Positions 16,643-64,000 of a stretch of 64,000 nt of DNA are shown in pieces. Below the pieces are notes generated by a model, which did no database searches, was not told the origin of the DNA, and saw nothing but the letters and a program-made list of their open reading frames with translations. Both the position numbers and the translations under genes were made by a program. The stretch comes from Trypethelium eluteriae (Eukaryota): assembly GCA_051942245.1 (NCBI GenBank), contig JAVECL010000010.1, positions 1 through 64,000 on the forward strand, written 5' to 3'. Position 1 is the stretch's first letter. The number at the start of each line of letters is the position of its first letter.

Positions 16643-17995
16643 CTAGGACTTTGGAAGCGCAGCCCCAAATCCGAACATGTCATCTTTACCTCCACCGCCA
16701 GCCACGCTAGGAGCCTTGCTTGCACCGCCCCCTCCAATACTCTTCGCGCCTCCTCCAGTACCACCAGGCTTATTCGGCATGGCAGACCCAAGCCCAAACA
16801 TGTCATCCTTACTCCCTCCCCCACCAGCCCTACTCCCCGTACCTTGTACGCTTTTTGGTCCTCCACCACCAGGCTTATTCAACGCCGCCCCAAACCCAAA
16901 CATGTCATCTTTGCTCCCTCCACCAACTCCCTTCCCGACACTCTGCCCACCCTTTGTCGCACTGCCGCTCGCATTCTGCCCGCTCTTCGATGCTCCACCA
17001 GCACCAGCACTGGCGCCAGCCCCACCAGGCCGCGACCGCTTATCCGGGATCACCTTCCCACTGTCGTTCTTCCGACTCGTCACGCCGACCATGGGCGAGC
17101 CCTTCGTCGCAGTTGAAGCCGGGCCGGGTGTTGGCGTCGCTTTCTTGCCTTGACTCGCCGGCAGGCTTTTATTCACCGCTGGCTTGCTCGCCGCGCCACT
17201 GCCATTGCCACTGCCATTGCCACTGCCATTGCCATTGCCGTTCCCCGACTTGGTGTTCGTCGATGCCTTGCCAGCGCCGCCAGGTTTGCTTTCAGGGCTG
17301 GTGGATTTCTTCCCCGAGTTGCTGGTGCTGGATTTTGAGTTGTCGGAGCTGTAGGGCGCAGGGAGGGCTTTTTTGGCGTTGTTCACGGTTGTGGTGCCTG
17401 CCTTTTTGGCACCTTCTGTGCTTGGGAGTGCCCTCTTGGCACCTCCGAGGGCGGATTGGGACGTTTTGGTGCTGGGAGCTGGGAGGGCCTTCAAAGGTCC
17501 CCCAGCGGACGGAAGGGCCTTCTGTGCGCCACCTGCAGAAGGAAGGGCTTTCTTTTGGTTCTGCTGACTGGACCTTGACTTGTCATCCTTTTTCTTGGAT
17601 GGAAGGACAGTCTTTTGAAGTTGCTGAGGGGAGTCCGCTTTGGTGGCGTCGACGGCGGCAGTACCGTAAGAATTGATAGAATTACCCCAGCCTGCTGCTG
17701 TTGCAGCGACACCTGTGAGAGACTCGGGTCAGCGCTGTTCTGCTAAGCTAGCAGCATGGGTCTGCATTTCAGTTTTGAAGCCATTGAGAATGGACGAAAA
17801 CTTCAGACTGTCTCCTATGACATGTGCGATACGATGGACAAGCTATAGCATACCATTCCCGACTTGTCGCCCGCTTGCTTCGATCAGGTCTCCTGCGCTG
17901 TTCACGAGTCCTCCTGCAAGATTGCCAGCATACGTGATGCCCGACTGTATCGCACCCTGCGCAGCATTCTGGATGAATCCTGAGATCATATCCAT
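16643..17995 (-). CDS. Low-complexity Gly/Ser/Lys-rich hypothetical protein with short internal repeats
   Basis: ATG 17995 (MDMISGFIQNAAQGAIQSG...); intron 17713-17853 (GTATGC...GCTGAC...CAG) splices in frame into ORF 16643-17494. Contains about six KALP-type repeats, an NGSG run and three GGGxKDDMFG(F/L)G repeats. Confidence 0.75.
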
Positions 17996-18785: not shown

Positions 18786-19161
18786 TACTCTTCAAGATGT
18801 ATCCGTAACTTCATGAAACCATTTCCTACGATCTCGCTGGAAAGGTAGTTCTGTTAATGCCATGACTACATGTAGGTAACGCGCAGCTCCCTCAGTGTCA
18901 CTTTTCTATGGCACTGCAAATACAATGTAAAATGAGTGAGAGCATTAGCTTTCAGATGTGTCCGACGACCAATGTCAAGCAGTAGCTGTACGGTACCAGG
19001 CGCCGCAGCCTTGCCTGGTATTGCTAGAAGGCCGGGCCAGAAACATTCTCCGTCCATTTTTCACCCATCATCATGTCACAACCGCAACACTTACTGTTCT
19101 TCCTTTATCTGTCCAAAATCTGATAGCATCTCACGTTGGAATCCACAAGTTCTCAGCTGAG

Positions 19162-22100
19162 ATGGCTGTTAAGCGAAATGGCACTGTCTTTCGTGTCAGT
19201 GGTCTTCCAGCCTCGCCGGCCAACGATGAGCTACAAAGAACGCTGGAGCACACCATCAAGTATAATCTTTTAGACGATGAAAAGTCGAAGATACTGCTTA
19301 GCATCGACATCGTGCCCTCCTGCTACAACAATGGACAGGAAAAGATCGCGCTGGTAGAGTTCCAGGGTGGAACTCCCCACTTCTTGTCCAAGCTGGAGGA
19401 AGACCCATTGGAAGACTGGCAGCTGGAAATGAACGATGTAGATATCAATTTCGATCGTCATTTTTTGGGATTCACACAACTTTATGCACCAAAGCCAAAT
19501 ACACCTATCACAGCGGAGTACGTAGCAAGCCTCTGACAGTATACTCGACTCGCGCGGCTGACCTACGCTGTCGCAGCATAATCGCAATCACCGGCCTCGA
19601 TGGGCATGCATACGGCTCTTGGAGAGGACGAGGAAATTTGGGTCGAATGTAGCTACGCGACTTTCTGTGCAAAGACCTGCCTCATTGTCGCACAATAACC
19701 TATGGATACAACTCCAAACTTTCAAGCAGGGGCATCGACACAATTATGGACTATGGTCGGGAGTTGATAGAGGAATTGAAGAAGGTTAGATCGATGGATG
19801 AGGTATCGATTTTTCACGATGCGTAACTGTGAGGACGCGTGTACAACACTGACAGCCTCAACCATAGGAGAGACGGCGACCCCTATTTCTCGTTGCGCAC
19901 AGTTTTGGAGGTATCATCATGGCTCATGTAGGTCCTACCCAGCTCGCGCTACGAAGATTCCACTGATTTAGCGGGCCAGTGTCTCATTCAGGCAGAGCAA
20001 ACAAGGCAAGATGATGAATCAACCATTGCGTCCCTTTACAGAGCCACATACGGCATGCTCTTATTTGCAATACCGCACAAAGGCCTTATCGTTGATAATA
20101 TTCAAAAAATGCTGTCAGGACAAGAGCAACATCCTCGAAATAACCTACTATCACAAATCAAAGTCCAGTCTGATGTCCTCGCGATCCAGCTAGGTCATTT
20201 CAAAAATCTCCTCCGCGACCGGAAGATTACTAGCTTCTACGAGATGAAACAGACCAGACAGCCTCAATTTGTACGAGAATGCATCAGCACTCGATCATGG
20301 AAATCGCTAATATCCTCGTCATAGGACAGTGAAAGCCAAAGTTGGAGAAGAAGTGGTGACTACGTAACAGCCGTTGAGACTGACTCGTCTCTTCTACAGC
20401 TCCCAGATCAAATCGAGGAAAAGATCCCCTTACATGCTGATCACTCCGAGATCGTCAAGTTCAATAGCCGGACAGACAAAGGATACACGAGTGCTCTAGG
20501 AAAGCTTAGACAATTTGAGCGGGACGCCCCATATATTGTCGCTACCCGTTTCGATCCGCATTGTGAGTGTATTCTCCCCTGTCTTCCATAAAGTACCAAG
20601 GTGTTCATGTTTTATGTCTAGTAATCTTCCTAATAGCTAATGCCATCACACTTCAGCACGACCGCCAGACATGCCACAAATGCCCTGCGAGGCAGCGCTG
20701 CAGGGGACACACGCGCCTATTCGTCAAGATTGCTCCATTGGCTCTGCACTTGAAAGAGATAGGGAAAGCAGACAAAGGCTGTACAACGATCTCATAGAGT
20801 CGCTAAATTTTCCGCGCGAGGACGCACGTCTCAGGAACGTCAAAAGAGCACACGGCAAGACCTGCTTATGGATCTTTTCACAAGCAGAATTTAAGCAATG
20901 GCGCGACGCACGCAACGTGGCAGAACATCATGGTTTTCTGTGGATCAAAGGCAAACCGGGATCTGGCAAATCGACCATAATGAAGGCTTATGATGTGAGG
21001 AAGAAGAAAGCGAACGAAGTAGTCATTGCATACTTTTTCAATGCTAGGGCGACCGATGTGCTGGAAAAATCGAGCTTGGGAATGTATCGCTCTTTGGTTC
21101 GTCAGCTCCTTAGAGCATTGCCACACTTAGAGGATGCTTTCCTCGAACAATTTCACACGAAGGCAAACAAAGGCGATGCTGATCCGTGGACAAGTACCGA
21201 GCTTCAGGAGTTTATACTACAAGTTGCTGAGAGCCTTGGTCATCGATCGCTCACTGTCTTCATCGATGCCCTTGACGAGGGGCAGGAGGACGATATTCGC
21301 AGCATGATTCAGTTCCTTGAAGAATTAGGACAAGTGTCAGTTGACAGTCAAGTATCACTCAGGATCTGCCTATCAAGTCGACATTACCCATGCATCAGAA
21401 TCAAGAAGGGAATTGATCTAGTTGTGGACAGTCAGCCAGGTCACAACAATGATATTGCCTCGTATGTCAATGATCATCTGAAGATAGATGATAGTACGCA
21501 AACGGAAGCACTAAAGCAGAAGATTTGCGCTAAAGCATCTGGAGTATTCCTCTGGATAGTACTGGTCATCCCAATCTTGAATAAGCAGGCTGATCATGGC
21601 CATATCGATGCAATGAATAAATGCCTGGACGACATTCCCCCTGAACTGGACGACCTTTTTGCTCGAATTCTGGAAAGGGATACCGAAAATAGAGGTGAGG
21701 TCCTGCGGTCGCTGCAGTGGGCCTTATATGCTCAGCGTCCGCTCAGTCCGGTGGAGTTGTATTTGGCCATCAAGGCCGGATCTGAATCCCCAGACGAACT
21801 GACTTCCGAGATTCCACATGAAGAGGCTATTCGACGATACCTTCTCAGTTGCTCTAAAGGCCTTACCGAGGTTTCAAGCTCTGAGCCCCCAATAATTCAA
21901 TTCATCCACGAGACCGTTCGAAGCTTTCTGTTAAAGGAAAATGGATTGACCGACCTTCAATCCGATCTCGGACAATCCTCGCCTGGGCGCAGTCACCAGC
22001 AACTGAGGCAAAATTGTTTTCGATATTTGTTGTTAGTGGATGGATTGCCCCAGTTCGACGAGGTTAGCCTTGGTAAAAGAAAACGCAACGCCACATCAGA

Positions 22101-23529
22101 GGGTAAACAAATGGACGAAAACGTGAAGGACGATATATCCCGAGAATTTCCATTCACAGAATACGCTGTAAAAAATGTTTTCCTTCACGCAGAAGCAGCT
22201 CAAAGCCATGGACTTTCGCAGCGAGCTTTTCTAAAACACCTCGCAGGAGAGGCAAATGCTGCATTCAGAAAATGGATACTTCTCTACAACATTTTCCAGC
22301 GTTACAGAATCCGTCGGTATACTCCAAGAGCCAGTCTACTTTACATCACCTCAGATCATAACCTGATCAACCTCGTCAAGGTCTTGATAGGGGACTCATT
22401 CGACATCAATTTCAAAGGTGAGAGGTATGCCACTCCTCTCGGAGCAGCGTGTGCAAATGCCCACGAAAAAGTAGCTCATCTGCTTATGGAAGCGGGAGCG
22501 GATGTCAATATCCTTGGTGGGGAACACAGTCATGCTCTCTTTGCGGCCATATCCCGTAAAAACGATTACATTGTGCGACTTATACAGAGCAAAAGCGAGT
22601 TTGAATCACGGGACATACTGTGCGTAAAACTGGATGTGACAATCCGCCGTGGTTATGTCTTCGGTGTAGAGGTCTTACTTGATCTAGGAGCTTATACGGA
22701 CGCCGATGGACACATCATGTCAGCTGACCCACTCTTCTTAGCGGCGGAGAACGGTAACCGCGAGATTGTCTTGCTTTTGCTACGTCGCGTTGCTCATACT
22801 ACTATACTGAACGGAGTTCTATCTTCCGCCAAGTCCAAGTTTCCCTCGAATCACCAGGGAAGTACAGCACTGCAGGTGGCTTCATACTATGCCTTTGAAA
22901 ACGTCGTAAGGCTGCTGCTTGATCATGGCGCCGACGTCAATACACAAGGCGGGGAATATGGCACAGCACTCCAAGCGGCTTCGTACTATGGCTCTGAGAA
23001 CATCGTGAAGCTATTGCTGAATAACGGCGCCGACGTCAATGTACAAAGTGGGAGATATGGCACAGCACTCCAAGCGGCTTCAAAGGGAGGCGTTGAGAAC
23101 ATCGTGAAGCTATTGCTGAAGAACGGCGCTGACGTCAATACACAAGGCGGGGAATATGGCACAGCACTCCAAGCGGCTTCATCTGCATATGCAGACGCTA
23201 AGCATGTCGTGAAACTATTGCTTGATAGAGGCGCAGATGTCAATGCGCAAGGTGGAATACATAGTACCGCGCTCATAGCAGCTTCGAGATATGGAATGTC
23301 GATCTATGACAGCGAGCCGACCGTGACGCTACTACTCGACAGAGGGGCCGACGTTAACGCACAAGACGCCCGGGGCGACACCGCGCTTCAAGCGGCTCTA
23401 AGCCGGGTGAGCGATGATGGAGCAGAAAAGATCGCGTGGCTTTTGCTTGGTCGCGGAGCAGACGTCAGTCTCCTCCCGCAAAATTTAGGCTACGTCGAAA
23501 GACTTCAGAAATTTGGAATTTTGGATTGA
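19162..23529 (+). CDS. Fungal NLR-like protein: SesB/PGAP1-like alpha/beta hydrolase + NACHT + ankyrin repeats, with an in-frame premature TAG at 19650-19652
   Basis: Six exons splice in frame: IIAITGLDGHAYGSW, GRM*LRDFL, TYGYNS, AHSFGG (nucleophile elbow), AIPHKG, ADHSEIVKF, then ORF 20671-23529. That ORF has P-loop GKPGSGKS, Walker B FIDALDE, SSR sensor, FIHETVR and multiple GADVN...TALQAAS ankyrin repeats. Confidence 0.9.
22927..23180 (+). repeat. Near-identical 99 bp tandem ankyrin-coding repeats
   Basis: GGCGCYGACGTCAAT recurs at 22927, 23026 and 23125 (exact 99 nt period). Copies 1 and 3 share an identical 50 nt stretch. Confidence 0.9.
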
Positions 23530-34694: not shown

Positions 34695-35189
34695 TGTTAT
34701 GAGCCTATACCCCCTGGTACAAGCCCAGCTTGTAGCAGGTACGTAGAAGGGTCTCAGAAGTTTTTCACGTAGGAGCGGAGTGTCAAGGATCCAATAATGT
34801 AAGAAGGGTTACTAAGCTTTGAACAACTTAATAATAAATAAGGTCTTATTTAATTTGGCTTATAACTAACTATAGGTACAGCTTTGGTATAATATAGTAA
34901 AGTAATAAAACGCAAGGAGAAAAATAAGAGTGTGCTTAGAACTCAGTTCCTTAAATATTTATTCCTTCTCCACTACAGCCTTCCTTCTTGCTGGTGTTGC
35001 AGCGAGGAGGGCGAGATGTCGTCTCGCTCTCTGCAAGGTGAGATCTCGCTCATCTCGCTGCGAGATGGTTGAGGTGTCCGTGCCACGTCCTTGCTTACTC
35101 CTGTTGCGAACGCGCTCAGTGTTACGCGATTGGTGCACTACAAGTAGTGGCTACCTCCAACGCGTCCTTGGTCAGGAGCGTTCGTAACA
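34695..35189. mobile_element. Solo LTR (495 bp) nested in the outer transposon
   Basis: Begins TGTTATGA and ends TCGTAACA; exact 5 bp target-site duplication TTACC at 34690-34694 and 35190-35194. Confidence 0.9.
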
Positions 35190-35410
35190 TTACCACAAAA
35201 ATCTTAAATCTGCCTACTTGATAGGGCTAAATTTAGAGTGTAAAAAGGCTGATAATATTCTTAGGATTTAAAAATTCTTTAACTTTATAAGTTTTTTTAA
35301 TTGCTTTATTTATTTTTTTATAATTTAATAAATTAGGGAGAAAATTAAAAAATATAAAATCCAGCCCCAAAATATTTATAATATGGACAAAAAAGGCTTT
35401 TTTTTAAGTA

Positions 35411-37266
35411 GAGTCTAGACCCTAGCTTTGATCAGACCCCAGCTTTGATCAGTCGCGTACCATGCTTTTTGTATGCAACACGCGTTATTTTTAATAATGC
35501 TAAAAAAATCTATTTAAGAACTCTTAGATTATAAAATTTAACTTTAAAAGGCCTTATTTGCACTTAAAAATTAAGAGATTTTATCTGTTTGGGCAGCTAC
35601 TTACCAGTTTAAAGTATCACATTTAACTCTTATGCGCAGGCATTATGCAGGCAATACACAAGCTATAAGCTATAAAATACAGCAGCTTTTTATAAACACA
35701 AAAGAATTAACTTTTGTATAATAAATTAAATAATATATAATAATTAGAATACCCATTACTTATTTAATATTAAAAGATTTTGCTTATAAGGTGCGCGTTG
35801 TACGCGTCTCGCATGCATCTTGCAGAATAACTGCCCACATAAAATACCCTCTTATTAATAATAAATAGATTTAATACTTTAAAAAATAACATCTAAAAAT
35901 ATGGATAATTCTAGCCCAATAACTAGAATACTCTTAATATAAAGGTGCAACTTATAAGCATGTAGAATACTGGTTTAATGCAGTTACTTTATAAGTAGCA
36001 AAGCACAAATATTACCTTTTAGACATGTATAATATAAATAAGTTAGGTTTTAGTGTTAAAAAAGAGCAGATAATAATAATTTTTATTCACCTTAATAATA
36101 TTAAAAAAGAGAAGGTTGTGCTTAATAAGCAGGATTGGGTAATTAATATTAAGTGTATTAGTGCTGCTGGCAAATTATTTGCGCCTTTTTTAGTATTTAA
36201 AGGTAATTATATAAATACTTAATAGATTTTAAAGTAAACACCTTATAACTGGTTTTTTATTACCAGCTAGAATAGCTGGATATTAAATAATATTAAATTA
36301 TAATAATTAATTAAAGTTTTTAATCCTTAAACACGCAAAAAGGCTGCAGATTATTGGCGTTTATTAATTATTAATAGGCATAGCAGCTATATTAAAGCAG
36401 ACTTTATTGCGCATTGTATAAAAAATAATATTAATCTTATAATTATGCCTCTTTATTATTCTTATTTTTTACAGCCGCTTAATATGGGAGTATTTTTATT
36501 ATTTAAGCTATAATATAATTATAAGTTGTATGCACTTAGCTAGCTAAGCTTATAATAAATCCCTTGCGCAGAATAAGTTAAATTACTTATAATAGCTTGG
36601 GCGAAAGCAGTTATAAGCAAGAATATTCTTATAGGCTGGTGAGGAGCTGGCTTAATACCTGCAAATTGCTATTAAGTACTTAAAGGGCTTCCTTATAAGG
36701 CTACTTTAACTGCTGCAAAATTACATACATTATTTAATCCAACTAATTTAGACCTCTTATTATTTTACAGCTTTTTTTTAAAAATAATCGCATTATTTTA
36801 ATTAAATATAAAGTTTGTGTAAATATTGCGTAATTATACCAAAGTTATATTGCTAGTATAACAGTACATGGATTATATAATAGGTCTTTACAAAACCTTA
36901 TCTATTATTATTACTTTTTAAAATTAGCAATTAGCTAATTAAGCTAAGCTTCTTAAAAAGTAAAAAAAAATAAAAAAAGGCAAAAAAGTTTAATTAAAGG
37001 GTGTCTTAATTTATTTTATTAAGGATATCTTATAAATAGCCCGCAAAATAAAGGCAAATATTAAGCATAAAAGGAAAAAATCTTAACACCAATAAGCTGC
37101 ATTAAATAAAAACTTAGATTAGATAGAAGATCCATTATTTAAGATATTATTTAGCAATTTTAATGAAGCGCCGGCTTCGCGCAGGCGTTGCGCACGCATT
37201 GCGCAGGTGGTTGTATGATTTTCACCGATCAAATCTAGGGTCCGATCAAATCTAGGGTCCAGACTC
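35411..37266 (+). mobile_element. Second pogo/Fot1-like transposon (1856 bp), RIP-degraded, nested in the outer element
   Basis: ~43 bp imperfect TIRs GAGTCT(A/G)GACCCTAG(C/A)TTTGATC... with an internal 17 bp direct repeat; TA on both sides. Relic transposase motifs MYNINKLGF, CISAAG..APFLVFKG, LLII.RHSSY, QPLNMGVF. Confidence 0.92.
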
Positions 37267-40200
37267 TATTATTAAGAAGTCTTAATATATTTTTAATATC
37301 CAAGCCTAAAAGAATAGCAAATTACTTAATACAGGCTAATATAGCTTAAAAAAATAAATTATAATAATTGCTTTAATTTATATAAATGGGATGGCTTTAT
37401 TACCACATATTATTTACGCCTTAAAAATAAACAATATTAAATATAACTGGATTAATAATTTTAAGCCTAAAGAGCATATAAGCTACTTTAGTAGCTTATT
37501 AAACAGCTAAATAAATAATAAAATAGGCCTTCTTTAGCTCTAGGAGCTATTTTATTAACACACGCAAAAGAAGGCTAAAAATGGATAAAATTTATGTTTA
37601 TTTATTATTAATAATTATAATAGCTATTATAATATGCAGTTTATTAACCTAAGTAATAAATATAGTATTATATTAGTTATATTCCTGTCCTATTTAACTT
37701 ATAGGCTTTAATTATTGGATGTTAAATTCTTTTATCCACTTGTACATTATTACTTAAAAAAATTGGATAAGTTTTTTAATAACTTATAACATATTAATAA
37801 TTTAAGTAAATATAACTTTTTTAACCTCTTTTAGCCTGCATTTAAGTATGCAATAATCCTAAAGAATATACTTAATAAATAGGAGGCTGTAAGGCTTTAA
37901 CTGTTTAATCCTAAGCGCGTGTTAGGCATACTGCGGCAATTATTATTTTTAGAACTAAAAAATAATTTAATAAAGCTTATACTTTAAATTCCCCTTAATT
38001 TATTTAAGCTATAATAAGCTATTATTTAAATTAAGAATTTGGTAATAAAAAAGCTCCTCCAATCTCTTAATATTACTTAAGTAAAGAATAGCCTTTTTTA
38101 TGCTAAAAATAAGGGTCTTTAGCAAGCTTTAATTAAAAAAAACACTAAACAGTTAAATAAAAAGGTATTTATTAATAATAAGCTTAGTAAGGCTTAAATT
38201 TTAACCCCCATAAAGGTTTAATTATTTCATAATAAATAAAAGCGTTTAAATAAGGAAGAAGCACAGCAAAAACAGCAGAAAGCAGCTTAAAAAAAGCAGC
38301 TATAATTAAATAGGCAGATTAAAAAGCAGGAGAAGCAGCAGTAAAAGCAACAGCGCAAAAAAGCTTGAATTCAGCAACAGCAGGCTTAAACTAAAAAAGT
38401 TCAGATTTAGCAGGACTTTTTTTAGAGCGAAATAAGCAGCTCAACAGCTTCAAAATAAATCAAAACACCATAAACAGAAGCAGACAAAAACACAGAAGGC
38501 TTCAAAACAGCCTAATTCAGAAGTTGCACCTGCAGAGGTAGAATCTCTAGTGGTTGAGGTAGTTTCTCATATTTCGCGCTCTCAGCGCGAAATTCGCCTA
38601 CCACAACGGTTTATGGAGTAAATTAAATAGCGCATTCAATTTGTCTAGTTCTCTACTATCTATCTATCTAATTATCTAGTTTATTGAGCAGTTCATTGTT
38701 GAATTATAGCCTTATGAAGCTGTGGAGATGAAACGCGTCCCACCGTGCACGGAGGTGGATCGTGCACGGAGTGGTGCGGACTTCTATAGCAGCAAAGTTA
38801 GAATAACATTGTGTAGATTACCTGTTGAGAAACCCCCCTTCCGCTGTAAGGTACTCTGCACTGTCTGCAGGTAGAAAAGCCCGGCGGGGCACCCGCTTTT
38901 TTTTGCTGCCCAACATCTCTAGAGTAACTGCGGGCCCCGATAGAATCGTTTAAAGAGAATAATTGAGACGCCTTCTGGTATATTCGAGCGCTCAAAGAAA
39001 CGCTCGAAGCAATGCTCAGAGGAGTTCGACTTTTCTAGAAAGCTGAGACCCAAGGAAATTAATGAAGTCAATCCAAATCGATTAAATCTACCTTTTTTTA
39101 GAGAGTGCAAGGCAATGCAAATCTGTTCAAGAACCAGATTTTTTTTTGTCCGTGCACAGCCAACACCCAGGTATTATCCATGCACCTTCATTCAGGGAAG
39201 GATCAGGGCTAGGAGTTTCTGCCATGACTTCGAGCACATACAGCAGGAAGGTTCGTCCGATAGCTAGCGTAACAGAGCTCCAGATCCAGAAAGACGCAGA
39301 ATCATCCATAAACCATGGAGTTGAAAGAGAAGCTGATTTGTGAATGTACGCTGGGAAGATCTGCAGACATTTTGTTTGGCTAGAGGATTTCCAAGTAGCG
39401 TCAGTTTAGCCAGCAGACTCGCCTAATTGCTACAGCTACAAGCCATCCACCAAACCCGGTCAAGGACTGGAGGCGAAATTCCTACATCGAACGTCTGGTG
39501 GATTTGTGAGCGATTGTTTAGTGCAATTGTCAAGTGGCAAGCGGCATGGCACAGCCTATCCGCAAGCGGTCCAACGGAAGCACCCTCACATGAGAAACAA
39601 TTCCATCCAAGTCTGCTCCTGCTTCCGGACCCCAGCTGGTAATGCTCTTGCTAGAAATTGAGCAGGCAGCTTGGGGAAGTCAACGTGTTGCGAGTCTTCC
39701 AAGGTGAAATCGTGAGCGGTATCTTCAAAGTCGGAAAGAGCCTTAAAACGTTCTCGACGTTCAATACGACAGGCTTGTCGATGCTACCATGATTGGTTGT
39801 AAATAGTCTGTATCCGACACAGAAAATCACATATAAATTGAAAACCTCGAATTTGGAAAGCATGAGCTGATGTGCCTTTTCCGAAGTGCTACTGCCAAGG
39901 TTCTCCAAAGGAAAGAGTCATGATCCTACGCCGCACTTGTAACGGAAATGCCTTCTCCTGCCTTGATAACATAAAGCTTTGTAGAAAGTTAAAGGCAGGT
40001 ACTCGTCACGATGTAGGTCGAGGCTACTGGCTACTGCAGGTGCGGACCTTTTGCAATGAGCGCAGCTCCCTCTTGATCAGATCACCATGTCGCCGCTGCC
40101 AACATGGTCAGCCATCAGACATCGCCAAGCTGCTTCCAGCCAAGTGGTACTTTCTCGACCTAGATTGTTATGTAAATAGAATCGCCTACTCCTTCATCTT

Positions 40201-62961: not shown

Positions 62962-64000
62962 ATGGAAGGTCATAAGATTGACCCATACCATCCAGCGCAC
63001 GCCTCTGAAATTGCTAGCCGAAAAGACAGTGATATGTCAAGCAGTATCGAGCATGGCACGGATCCTCCTGATCACTGTACATCCTTTCCGACAAACCCCG
63101 ATGGCAGTACGCCAAGATCTGGCCACGTCCATCAGTCCCCCGTGCAAAAGCTCAAAATCAAGGTAAGACAACCCACATCAAATGACAAAGAAGCATCCGA
63201 AGCGGTCTCACGGAAAAAACTACGTATCGCGACAACACAGGCAAGCTCTACGCCCCGGCGCAACCCCAACCGATCTCGCCGAAAGCAAGGATCTGCCAAC
63301 GATCACATCGAGCGGAAACACCCACAGAATGTGAGTTACGCTCACATCGACCTCCAAAAATCCCGACGGTGCGATGGCAACCTCGTCAACAAGACCAACG
63401 GTCAGGACTCGAAAATGCCACGGGGACAACCATTCCTAGCCAAGGCACAATCAAGGCTCACTCAACGAACGCTCAAACTTCTCGAACGCGGAGTCCTCCA
63501 ATCTGCGACCGACGCACCACAGATCGACACCGAGGTCGCAGAGGTCCTCTGGCACCTTGCCCAAGAATTCGAGAACCAATGGCATGACGGCACGCCCAAC
63601 CCGCTCGTTCATGACCCAGTCATCCGCGACCACTGCAAACGAACCATTGAGAACCTCCTCAAGGGCGGTGGTCCCGTGGTCAACAGCATGATTCCTACTA
63701 TCGAGTCCCGCAAGCTGTCGCAACTGTACTACAATTTGATCAGGCTTTCCGAGAAGGAATCTAAGAATGGCTCCGGGAATAATATGAGAGTGGCAGCGCG
63801 TGAAGGCATACAGAGAGGAGAGGCGGGCATGAGTTGGGCTAGTCTACCTGGAATGCGCTTCCGGTTCGGGGGGGAGGCATCCGGGTCATCCTCGATGGAT
63901 TTTAGAGCATTTCCTGCACGCAAAGCTGCTGAAGATGGAGAAGGTGCAAATGGGGAAGGGGATGTCGAGGAAATGGATGTTGTGGAAAGCGCATCAGTAT
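62962..64000 (+). CDS. Hypothetical protein, partial (runs off the window; absent from the ORF track)
   Basis: Frame from ATG 62962 (MEGHKIDPYH...) is stop-free for 346 codons to the window end. Basic NLS-like patches, then a helical-looking region (EVAEVLWHLAQEFENQW). Confidence 0.65.
   Translation, partial: MEGHKIDPYHPAHASEIASRKDSDMSSSIEHGTDPPDHCTSFPTNPDGSTPRSGHVHQSPVQKLKIKVRQPTSNDKEASEAVSRKKLRIATTQASSTPRRNPNRSRRKQGSANDHIERKHPQNVSYAHIDLQKSRRCDGNLVNKTNGQDSKMPRGQPFLAKAQSRLTQRTLKLLERGVLQSATDAPQIDTEVAEVLWHLAQEFENQWHDGTPNPLVHDPVIRDHCKRTIENLLKGGGPVVNSMIPTIESRKLSQLYYNLIRLSEKESKNGSGNNMRVAAREGIQRGEAGMSWASLPGMRFRFGGEASGSSSMDFRAFPARKAAEDGEGANGEGDVEEMDVVESASV

What the first reader, a model, noticed from the sequence alone, without database searches (positions are those of the whole stretch)
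19650..19652. Single in-frame TAG at a Trp position in an otherwise intact 4.4 kb NLR: RIP knockout, polymorphic null or A-to-I stop correction
Seen: exon 2 reads GGT CGA ATG TAG CTA CGC GAC TTT CTG (GRM*LRDFL). SesB-like hydrolases have WLRDxL here. All other exons, splice sites, the catalytic Ser/His and the NACHT-ANK frame are intact. Known: TGG to TAG is a RIP-type CpA transition on the other strand. UAG to UIG is also the sexual-stage premature-stop-correction editing described in Fusarium and Neurospora. Inference: if edited, a cell-death or immune receptor would be switched on stage-specifically. Alternatively, the downstream ATG at 20671 could give an effector-less NACHT-ANK protein.
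Basis: partly seen in the sequence, partly recalled or inferred. Interest (0 to 1): 0.7.

Follow-up and report, generated by a model that had tools for sequence, protein, structure and literature searches.

The report
Nonsense codon in a lichen-fungus NLR
A fungal immune-receptor-type gene carries one genuine stop codon at an invariant tryptophan and is otherwise intact, which most likely makes it a recently inactivated copy, an ordinary fate for this gene family.

Summary
TAG sits at 19650-19652, in exon 2 of a six-exon gene (19162-23529, +). The gene has 1,347 codons and five GT-AG introns, and codon 144 is its only internal stop. It encodes a sesB-like hydrolase, NACHT and ankyrin NLR.

All 121 homologs examined have Trp at this position, in the motif (G/R)RMWLR(D/H)FL.

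The stop is not an assembly error. A DNA run, X1, covers the site at word depth about 443 with the same letter. X1 differs from the window at two other places, so it is not letter-identical. Two public gene models of near-identical sequence both skip exon 2.

Near-identical proteins are named from Trypetheliaceae, which are lichen-forming Dothideomycetes. [quoted passage not shown]

Against editing or RIP:
- No deaminase gene lies in the window.
- The gene has no RIP signature.
- The local RNA fold is inconclusive.
- No RNA run was listed, so editing could not be tested.

Best reading: a young loss-of-function allele (about 0.85). Editing, readthrough and a functional shorter isoform each get about 0.04-0.05. 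Interest is low.

The parts
19162..23529 (+). Whole NLR gene: six exons, 1,347 codons, terminal TGA at 23527-23529
   Evidence: Gene model. It aligns end to end with P0016 (query 1-1288 against 1-1310, 50% identity).
19162..19517 (+). Exon 1: a 118-residue N-terminal domain with no Pfam family. It ends in phase 2 at a conserved intron position.
   Evidence: One search found 0 families. One search shows 48-54% identity to P0016 and P0026. In one search, 5 of 7 exon-1 fragments from other fungi end at this position (...TAE); the other 2 read on past it.
19577..19802 (+). Exon 2: start of the hydrolase domain (GLDGH, then RM*LRDF). Both public spliced gene models skip this exon.
19650..19652 (+). 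In-frame TAG at codon 144, where homologs have an invariant Trp. It is followed by CUA.
   Evidence: Trp in 121 of 121 homologs. Run X1 has the same letter at word depth about 443.
19868..19927 (+). Exon 3: nucleophile elbow AHSFGG, with candidate catalytic Ser206 at 19901-19903
   Evidence: The catalytic role is inferred from the alpha/beta-hydrolase motif and was not tested.
19889..19889 (+). Variant site: C in the window (Leu202), T in run X1 (Phe, as in P0122 and the family consensus)
   Evidence: The column is at least 95% Phe among homologs.
19980..20270 (+). Exon 4 of the hydrolase domain
20325..20562 (+). Exon 5: end of the hydrolase domain, with LHADHSEIVKF (candidate catalytic His351 at 20442-20444)
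   Evidence: The catalytic role is inferred from the motif.
20657..23529 (+). Exon 6: NACHT (NPHP3_N type) NTPase, then helical and winged-helix parts, then ankyrin repeats
   Evidence: Pfam: NPHP3_N 2.2e-30, Ank_2 2.6e-44, Ank 3.3e-40.
20671..20673 (+).
   Evidence: On the spliced mRNA, 13 other ATGs lie between the TAG and this ATG.
20950..20973 (+). Walker A, GKPGSGKS (aa 489-496)
22864..23182 (+). Tandem array of 99-bp (33-residue) ankyrin units: 3.2 copies, 82% matches
   Evidence: X1's contigs break in this stretch (table 8).
23327..23327 (+). Variant site: C in the window (Thr1281, as in P0121), G in run X1 (Arg)

Best explanation
This is a real germline nonsense mutation (TGG to TAG, Trp144 to stop). 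It lies in the N-terminal sesB-like/DUF676-type alpha/beta-hydrolase effector domain of a NACHT-ankyrin NLR, in a lichen-forming fungus of the Trypetheliaceae (Dothideomycetes). Translation of the normal mRNA would end after 143 residues, before the nucleophile Ser, the candidate His, the NTPase and the ankyrin sensor. With four introns downstream of the stop, the message is also a likely target of nonsense-mediated decay. The allele is therefore a null. The mutation is young, because nothing else in the 1,347 codons is broken and the hydrolase domain still keeps nearly all family-conserved residues. Shown: the stop, its position at an invariant Trp, its presence in two non-identical DNA sources, and the intactness of the rest of the gene. 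Inferred: loss of function, decay of the message, and recency.
For: -
- Trp is present in 121 of 121 homologs, so no tolerated variant is known at this position.
- Run X1 covers the site in a 4,196-base contig at word depth 442.7 with no other letter there. It differs from the window at 19889 and 23327.
- Proteins P0121 and P0122 are near-identical to the window's translation. They have three different gene-model solutions between them and P0003, and all avoid exon 2.
- Both differences between the window and X1 are nonsynonymous. One of them, Phe202 to Leu in the window, hits a column that is at least 95% conserved, four residues before the nucleophile Ser. That fits relaxed constraint after the stop, although n = 2.
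- Stop-codon pseudogenes of NLRs that are intact in other strains are described as common in Podospora (PMC13449251, passages).
- The source names of the near-identical proteins place the window in Dothideomycetes.
- On distribution of editing, the review PMC11156358 (passages) lists Sordariomycetes and Pyronema only, with none found in Aspergillus nidulans or Botrytis cinerea. [quoted passage not shown]
- No deaminase family turned up in 150 of the window's 155 ORFs of 90 aa or more, nor in 8 neighbouring ORFs at E up to 1.
Against: - The rest of the gene is fully intact. All five introns have GT-AG ends, there is no frameshift, and 118 of 125 family-conserved columns of the hydrolase domain are kept. 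A long-dead gene would not look like this, and a conditionally restored gene would.
- The stop is shared by two non-identical sources, so it is not private to one culture.
- UAG is the one stop that A-to-I editing turns into Trp. By definition it has U at -1 and G at +1.
- In a 41-nt fold the A lies in a hairpin loop in 975 of 1,000 sampled structures.
- The stop is followed by CUA, a leaky termination context in fungi (PMC4207609, passages).
- No RNA data could be examined.
- X1 was flagged as a possible source of this DNA, and Logan contigs drop rare variants.
Confidence: 0.85

Rival explanations
1. Conditional restoration by A-to-I mRNA editing. UAG would be edited to UIG and read as Trp, in fruiting bodies or under infection or stress, so the NLR is made only then.
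For: The stop is TAG at an ancestral TGG, the class of site corrected in Fusarium and Neurospora PSC pseudogenes (PMC10776026, passages) and in the zao genes edited by neighbouring OLD deaminases (PMC12754623, passages). The rest of the ORF is intact. The stop is shared by two sources. In a 41-nt window the A is in a hairpin loop in 975 of 1,000 sampled folds.
Against: The lineage is Dothideomycetes. The known machinery is placed at the origin of Sordariomycetes, and genome-wide editing was not found in the Eurotiomycete and Leotiomycete species tested (passages). No deaminase gene was found in the window. The hairpin-loop share falls to 463, 137 and 122 per 1,000 in 61-, 81- and 121-nt windows. 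The 81-nt stretch folds no better than shuffles (z +1.36; 186 of 200 shuffles fold at least as well). In the 7-nt loop of the short fold, the A is the 6th base, whereas tRNA A34 is the 3rd. The window's copy carries a further change at a conserved residue, F202L.
Confidence: 0.04
2. Low-level translational readthrough of UAG-CUA gives a small amount of full-length protein, with Gln, Tyr or Lys in place of Trp.
For: The stop is followed by CUA. In fungi, CU(A) after a stop is enough for efficient readthrough of UGA (PMC4207609, passages).
Against: The same paper reports that replacing UGA with UAG or UAA reduces readthrough. The residues usually inserted at UAG (Gln, Tyr, Lys; recalled, not from a call) would sit at a position that is Trp in 121 of 121 homologs. 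CTA here is simply the Leu codon of the conserved WLRDF motif.
Confidence: 0.04
3. The locus still makes a useful shorter product. This would be either an exon-2-skipped hydrolase-NACHT-ANK isoform, as in the public gene models, or an effector-less NACHT-ANK protein from an internal start such as ATG 20671.
For: Annotation pipelines produced in-frame models without exon 2 (P0121, P0122). An in-frame ATG lies at 20671, upstream of the NACHT domain.
Against: Simple skipping of exon 2 breaks the frame: exon 1 ends in phase 2 and exon 2 is 226 nt. The public models need non-homologous splice sites and lose the invariant GLDGH...W segment. On the spliced mRNA, 13 AUGs lie between the stop and ATG 20671, so reinitiation there is unlikely without an internal promoter, for which there is no evidence. 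No RNA data were available.
Confidence: 0.05
4. The TAG is an assembly or sequencing error, and the organism has TGG.
For: None found. X1 was flagged as a possible source of this DNA.
Against: X1's contig has the same letter at word depth 442.7, and X1 differs from the window at two other places. Gene models on near-identical sequence under two different source names both avoid exon 2.
Confidence: 0.01

Closest known systems
sesB-like / NACHT / ANK fungal NLRs (Dyrka et al. 2014, PMC4986451; passages seen)
   Same: The three-part layout matches: a predicted lipase/esterase alpha/beta-hydrolase effector, then a NACHT NTPase, then ankyrin repeats. That paper lists this architecture, for example in Metarhizium. 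Here, NPHP3_N/NACHT and Ank were found by Pfam. The N-domain is 60-70% identical to the N-domains of NB-ARC-TPR, NACHT-ANK and NACHT-WD40 proteins of several classes. Three of five scanned homologs pass Pfam's DUF676 cutoff.
   Different: The reading frame is interrupted at codon 144. The window's own exon pieces are too short to reach any hydrolase Pfam family. An extra 118-residue domain with no family precedes the hydrolase.
Strain-polymorphic pseudogenised NLRs of Podospora (PMC13449251; passages seen)
   Same: These are NLR genes disabled by stop codons, some of them intact in other strains. Many of the Podospora mutations are G>A or C>T in RIP-like context, as this one is.
   Different: Here there is a single mutation and no AT enrichment. 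No intact allele has been seen, since both sources carry TAG. The organism is a lichenised Dothideomycete.
[quoted passage not shown]
   Same: An in-frame TAG replaces an ancestral amino-acid codon in an otherwise intact gene.
   Different: Those genes belong to Sordariomycetes, which have the TAD2/TAD3/AME1 editing system, and their editing is seen in RNA. Here the lineage differs and no RNA evidence exists. 'NACHT', 'ankyrin' and 'heterokaryon' each occur 0 times in that paper's main text.
OLD-ZAO neighbour editing in Neurospora (commentary PMC12754623; passages seen)
   Same: A UAG in a defence-related gene whose full-length product is costly.
   Different: That system needs an adjacent OTT_1508-like deaminase gene, and its targets are zinc-finger transcription factors. 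No deaminase lies in this window, and the target here is an NLR.

Membership tests
Fungal NLR (STAND NTPase with effector and repeat domains) | Central NACHT/NB-ARC P-loop NTPase | tested here: met
   NPHP3_N scores 2.2e-30, 106.4 bits against a cutoff of 24.8. Walker A GKPGSGKS lies at aa 489 and FIDALDE at aa 592.
Fungal NLR (STAND NTPase with effector and repeat domains) | C-terminal repeat sensor (ANK, TPR or WD40) | tested here: met
   Ank_2 scores 2.6e-44 and Ank 3.3e-40. A 99-bp unit array of 3.2 copies is present.
Fungal NLR (STAND NTPase with effector and repeat domains) | Uninterrupted reading frame joining the three domains | tested here: not met
   TAG at codon 144 of 1,347.
sesB-like / DUF676 alpha/beta-hydrolase effector domain | Significant match to the family profile (Pfam PF05057, or the sesB profile of Dyrka et al.) | tested here: inconclusive
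   The window's exon pieces gave 0 hydrolase families. Close homologs P0016, P0026 and P0028 gave none at E up to 0.001. Of five more distant homologs, P0193, P0195 and P0217 pass (24.9-25.8 bits against a cutoff of 20.3), while P0123 and P0141 fall below it. The window's domain is 60-70% identical to this group. The sesB profile itself is not held here.
sesB-like / DUF676 alpha/beta-hydrolase effector domain | Nucleophile elbow (small-x-Ser-x-small) and a downstream His | tested here: met
   AHSFGG lies at aa 204-209 and ADHSEIVKF at aa 349. Catalytic roles are inferred from motifs only.
Restorative (PSC) A-to-I editing site | Genomic TAG where relatives have TGG/Trp | tested here: met
   Trp in 121 of 121 homologs.
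Restorative (PSC) A-to-I editing site | A in DNA but G in RNA of the same strain | not testable with these tools
   No RNA holder was listed. The only run laid is DNA contigs.
Restorative (PSC) A-to-I editing site | Organism belongs to a lineage with demonstrated mRNA editing | tested here: not met
   Source names of near-identical proteins place it in Trypetheliaceae, Dothideomycetes. Reports cover only Sordariomycetes and Pyronema (passages). The genome itself could not be searched for the machinery.
Restorative (PSC) A-to-I editing site | Edited A in a hairpin loop with U at -1 | tested here: inconclusive
   U at -1 is met. The hairpin-loop share is 975, 463, 137 and 122 per 1,000 sampled folds for 41-, 61-, 81- and 121-nt windows. 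In the 81-nt MFE the A is a bulge, with z +1.36.
OLD-ZAO type neighbour editing | Adjacent OTT_1508-like deaminase gene | tested here: not met
   No deaminase family in 150 of the 155 ORFs of 90 aa or more in the window. The five not scanned were four inside the NLR gene and one at 63454-63843. Eight neighbouring ORFs at E up to 1 gave nothing relevant. A gene built of short exons could be missed.
RIP-mutated gene | C>T or G>A at CpA/TpG | tested here: met
   TGG to TAG is G>A after T, which is CpA to TpA on the other strand.
RIP-mutated gene | Many such transitions and skewed dinucleotide indices | tested here: not met
   For the gene, TpA/ApT is 0.65 and (CpA+TpG)/(ApC+GpT) is 1.33. The thresholds of about 0.89 and 1.03 are recalled, not from a call. 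The two other recent differences are T/C and C/G.
RIP-mutated gene | A duplicated copy to trigger RIP | tested here: inconclusive
   No blastn or tblastx match of the gene elsewhere in the window. The rest of the genome is not held. The internal ANK array is only 318 bp at 82%.
Programmed stop-codon readthrough (UGA-CUA type) | Stop followed by CU(A) | tested here: met
   TAG CTA C.
Programmed stop-codon readthrough (UGA-CUA type) | The stop is UGA | tested here: not met
   The stop is UAG. PMC4207609 reports reduced readthrough with UAG or UAA (passage).

The most novel reading that the evidence does not exclude
A lichen-forming Dothideomycete, outside the lineages known to edit mRNA, keeps a costly cell-death or immune receptor switched off by a UAG at an invariant Trp. 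It restores the receptor by A-to-I editing only in fruiting bodies or under attack. That would extend restorative editing to a new fungal class and to NLR immunity.
Probability: 0.04. Interest if true: 0.8.

Novelty: new member of a known kind. Interest (0 to 1): 0.15.

Why it matters
As it stands, this is a routine case of NLR turnover. Its practical value is as an annotation correction. Three public gene models (P0003, P0121, P0122) cut the locus into pieces or skip exons to dodge the stop. The locus is better described as one six-exon sesB-like/NACHT/ANK gene with a nonsense codon. It would matter more only if RNA showed A-to-G at 19651. That would be the first restorative editing outside Sordariomycetes and Pezizomycetes, and the first to gate an NLR.

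Tried and rejected
- **Whole genome:** not held. The editing machinery, paralogs and genome-wide TAG-at-Trp counts could therefore not be searched.
- **RNA evidence:** no RNA holder listed.
- **Other alleles:** two exact-pattern scans of metagenome contigs, one spanning the site with R at the variable base and one 36 bases upstream, each gave 0 matches. A search for short gene models with exon 1 gave 15 proteins at 52-63% identity and none near-identical. The seven I read are exon-1 fragments of other fungi; five end at the conserved intron position and two read on past it.
- **Earlier findings of this scan:** nothing by place, sequence or words.
- **Close orthologs for dN/dS:** none. The best non-self match to exon 6 is 53% identical and DNA of relatives is not available, so no dN/dS was computed.
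- **Pfam on N-terminal exon pieces:** no family, only a weak TniB match at E 0.038, taken as chance.
- **First gene model:** wrong borders, replaced.
- **Scan for same-frame ORF pairs split by one stop:** 24 pairs across the window, several of them in-frame introns of known genes. None was followed and nothing resembled this case.
- **List of small ORFs (45-89 aa) near the gene:** made but not scanned.
- **Tiny intron removing the TAG:** rejected by reading. GTCGAATGTAG is 11 nt, and a longer intron ending at this TAG would delete the conserved GLDGH segment.
- **Papers opened for 'Dothideomycetes':** PMC10041177 and PMC13123824 held nothing on editing in that class.
Full report
**Observation**

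The window reads GGT CGA ATG TAG CTA CGC GAC TTT CTG, with TAG at 19650-19652. Exon 2 translates as IIAITGLDGHAYGSWRGRGNLGRM*LRDFLCKDLPHCRTITYGYNSKL....

My first set of exon borders was wrong. The corrected model has these exons:

| Exon | Coordinates |
|---|---|
| 1 | 19162-19517 |
| 2 | 19577-19802 |
| 3 | 19868-19927 |
| 4 | 19980-20270 |
| 5 | 20325-20562 |
| 6 | 20657-23529 |

The five introns are 52-94 nt and all GT...AG. The CDS is 4,044 nt (1,347 codons plus the terminal stop), and the single internal stop is codon 144.

The spliced product aligns end to end with the homolog P0016 (residues 1-1288 against 1-1310, 50% identity).

**What the gene is**

Exon 6 carries an NPHP3_N-type NACHT NTPase (2.2e-30) and ankyrin repeats (Ank_2 2.6e-44). 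Walker A (GKPGSGKS) lies at residue 489 and FIDALDE at 592. A 99-bp ankyrin unit is repeated 3.2 times at 82%.

The N-terminal exons are too short to reach any Pfam family on their own. Homology still identifies the domain:
- A search with residues 100-400 of the homolog P0026 returned 194 proteins at E up to 1e-5.
- The 120 listed are NB-ARC-TPR, NACHT-ANK and NACHT-WD40 proteins of Leotiomycetes, Sordariomycetes, Eurotiomycetes and Dothideomycetes.
- The window's domain is 60-70% identical to these.
- Of five homologs scanned, three pass Pfam's curated DUF676 ("putative serine esterase") cutoff and two fall below it.

This matches the "sesB-like" predicted lipase effector domain of fungal NLRs described by Dyrka et al. 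2014 (PMC4986451, passages). I could not run that paper's own profile.

The nucleophile elbow AHSFGG (Ser206) and the ADHSEIVKF motif (His351) are in frame. Their catalytic roles are inferred from the motifs.

A 118-residue domain with no family precedes the hydrolase.

**The stop lies at an invariant residue**

In an alignment-free read-off from BLASTP pairs, the position is Trp in 121 of 121 homologs. These are the 118 new proteins plus P0016, P0026 and P0028. The commonest contexts are GRMWLRDFL (87) and GRMWLRHFL (22). One transition, TGG to TAG, explains the state.

**The stop is real DNA, not an assembly error**

Only one public run was listed, X1. It is DNA, held as contigs, holds 0.98 of the sampled words, and was flagged as a possible source.

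- A 4,196-base X1 contig at word depth 442.7 spans 19100-22962 with one other letter and no gaps.
- That other letter is at 19889 (C>T), not at 19651.
- A second difference lies at 23327 (C>G).

X1 is therefore not letter-identical to the window, yet it has the same TAG.

The protein cluster of the window's own fragment P0003 holds two named members:
- P0121: 1,243 aa, named as a MAG of Trypethelium eluteriae.
- P0122: 318 aa, Viridothelium virens, "DUF676 domain-containing protein".

Both are near-identical to the window's translation, and both gene models skip exon 2.

P0122 has Phe where the window has Leu202, which is X1's letter at 19889. P0121 has Thr at codon 1281, which is the window's letter at 23327.

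At least two sequence versions therefore exist in public data, and every model built on them avoids the exon with the stop.

Limits: contigs drop rare variants, and there are only two sources.

**Taxon**

Both source names belong to Trypetheliaceae, Trypetheliales, Dothideomycetes. The closest homologs with the same N-domain are from Bathelium mastoideum. No whole genome is held for the window.

**Age and constraint**

The hydrolase domain keeps 118 of the 125 columns that are at least 95% conserved among homologs. The family median is 2 departures. The Bathelium models have 12-18, partly from gene-model errors. The domain was therefore under purifying selection until recently.

The seven departures include the stop and Phe202Leu. 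The latter is private to the window's version, since X1 and P0122 keep Phe.

Both differences between the window and X1 are nonsynonymous (L/F at codon 202, T/R at codon 1281). With n = 2 this only leans towards relaxed constraint.

No close ortholog exists for a dN/dS test: the best non-self match to exon 6 is 53% identical.

**RIP**

The change is RIP-type in context (G>A after T). Otherwise the evidence is against RIP:
- The gene's indices are un-RIPped: TpA/ApT 0.65 and (CpA+TpG)/(ApC+GpT) 1.33.
- The other two recent differences are not RIP-type.
- No second copy lies in the window.
- The internal ankyrin array is short (318 bp).

An AT-rich island with partly RIP-like indices lies 12 kb downstream at 35.0-38.6 kb (GC 0.285, TpA/ApT 1.27). 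RIP or something like it may therefore have acted in this genome. A single transition cannot be assigned to it.

**A-to-I editing**

This could not be tested directly, because no RNA holder was listed. The indirect evidence is as follows.

- *Reported distribution.* The review PMC11156358 (passages) lists editing in Fusarium, Neurospora, Sordaria and Pyronema. It says genome-wide editing was not identified in Aspergillus nidulans cleistothecia or Botrytis cinerea apothecia, and it leaves other classes open.
- *Print search.* A full-text search for editing terms together with "Dothideomycetes" gave no paper reporting editing in that class. The two hits I opened use the word in other contexts.
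- *Neighbour editing.* A second system, OLD-ZAO, corrects a UAG in the gene next to an OTT_1508-like deaminase (commentary PMC12754623, passages; the primary paper was not in the library). I scanned 150 of the window's 155 ORFs of 90 aa or more and found no deaminase. Eight neighbouring ORFs at E up to 1 gave nothing relevant.
- *Flanking genes.* These are a metallo-beta-lactamase-fold gene, a low-complexity Gly/Ser/Lys-rich gene, an acyltransferase and an aldehyde dehydrogenase.
- *Structure.* The result depends on the window length. The A is in a hairpin loop in 975, 463, 137 and 122 of 1,000 sampled folds for 41-, 61-, 81- and 121-nt windows. The 81-nt stretch is no more stable than shuffles (z +1.36).

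None of this excludes editing, but nothing supports it beyond the codon itself.

**Readthrough and shorter products**

The stop is followed by CUA. In fungi, CU(A) after UGA is enough for efficient readthrough, but UAG or UAA in its place reduces it (PMC4207609, passages). The inserted residue would not be Trp (recalled).

On the spliced mRNA, 13 AUGs lie between the stop and the in-frame ATG at 20671. An effector-less NACHT-ANK protein would therefore need its own promoter.

Simple skipping of exon 2 breaks the frame. The public models restore it only with splice sites that delete conserved sequence.

**Verdict**

The finding is a true nonsense codon at an invariant Trp in an otherwise intact sesB-like/NACHT/ANK NLR of a Trypetheliaceae fungus, present in two non-identical DNA sources.

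NLR genes disabled by stop codons, often intact in other strains, are described as common in Podospora (PMC13449251, passages). This fungus's class has no reported mRNA editing.

The most likely reading is therefore a young loss-of-function allele (0.85). The alternatives are:

| Alternative | Probability |
|---|---|
| A-to-I editing | 0.04 |
| Readthrough | 0.04 |
| Functional shorter isoform | 0.05 |
| Assembly error | 0.01 |

The case is ordinary. The one cheap experiment that could change that is cDNA sequencing across 19651 from fruiting thalli.

Noticed in passing
window 35000-38600: AT-rich island with GC 0.285 (as low as 0.247 per kb). TpA/ApT is 1.27 and (CpA+TpG)/(ApC+GpT) is 1.13, and it has almost no ORFs of 90 aa or more. 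It looks like a RIP-type degraded repeat about 12 kb from the NLR.
   Followed up: partly
window 16643-17728 (-): The gene just upstream of the NLR encodes a 361-residue low-complexity Gly/Ser/Lys/Ala-rich product. It has repeated ...GGGSKDDMFGFGAAL... units and a (GN/GS)n run, and no Pfam family even at E up to 1.
   Followed up: partly
window 19162-23529: Public annotations cut this one locus three ways. P0003 is a 530-aa NACHT fragment. P0122 has 318 aa without exon 2 and reads into intron 5. P0121 has 1,243 aa without exons 2-3 and with an extra predicted intron in the NACHT. All appear to be work-arounds for the stop.
   Followed up: yes
window 19889 and 23327: These are the only two differences between the window and run X1 over 4,501 bases. 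Both are nonsynonymous (Leu/Phe202 and Thr/Arg1281), and the first falls in a column that is at least 95% conserved.
   Followed up: yes
window 19162-19517 (exon 1): A 118-residue domain ahead of the hydrolase has no Pfam family but is conserved at 52-63% in 15 short proteins from other fungi. Of the 7 fragments read, 5 end at the same intron position (...TAE) and 2 read on past it. Its fold and role are unknown.
   Followed up: partly
window 19577-20562 (hydrolase domain): This effector domain is unusually conserved for an NLR part: 60-70% identity across four classes of Pezizomycotina, fused to NB-ARC-TPR, NACHT-ANK or NACHT-WD40 backbones.
   Followed up: partly
window 22864-23182: Ankyrin units of 99 bp are repeated 3.2 times at 82% identity. 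X1's contigs break exactly here and word depth rises to 674 in that bin, as expected for internally repeated NLR sensor domains.
   Followed up: no
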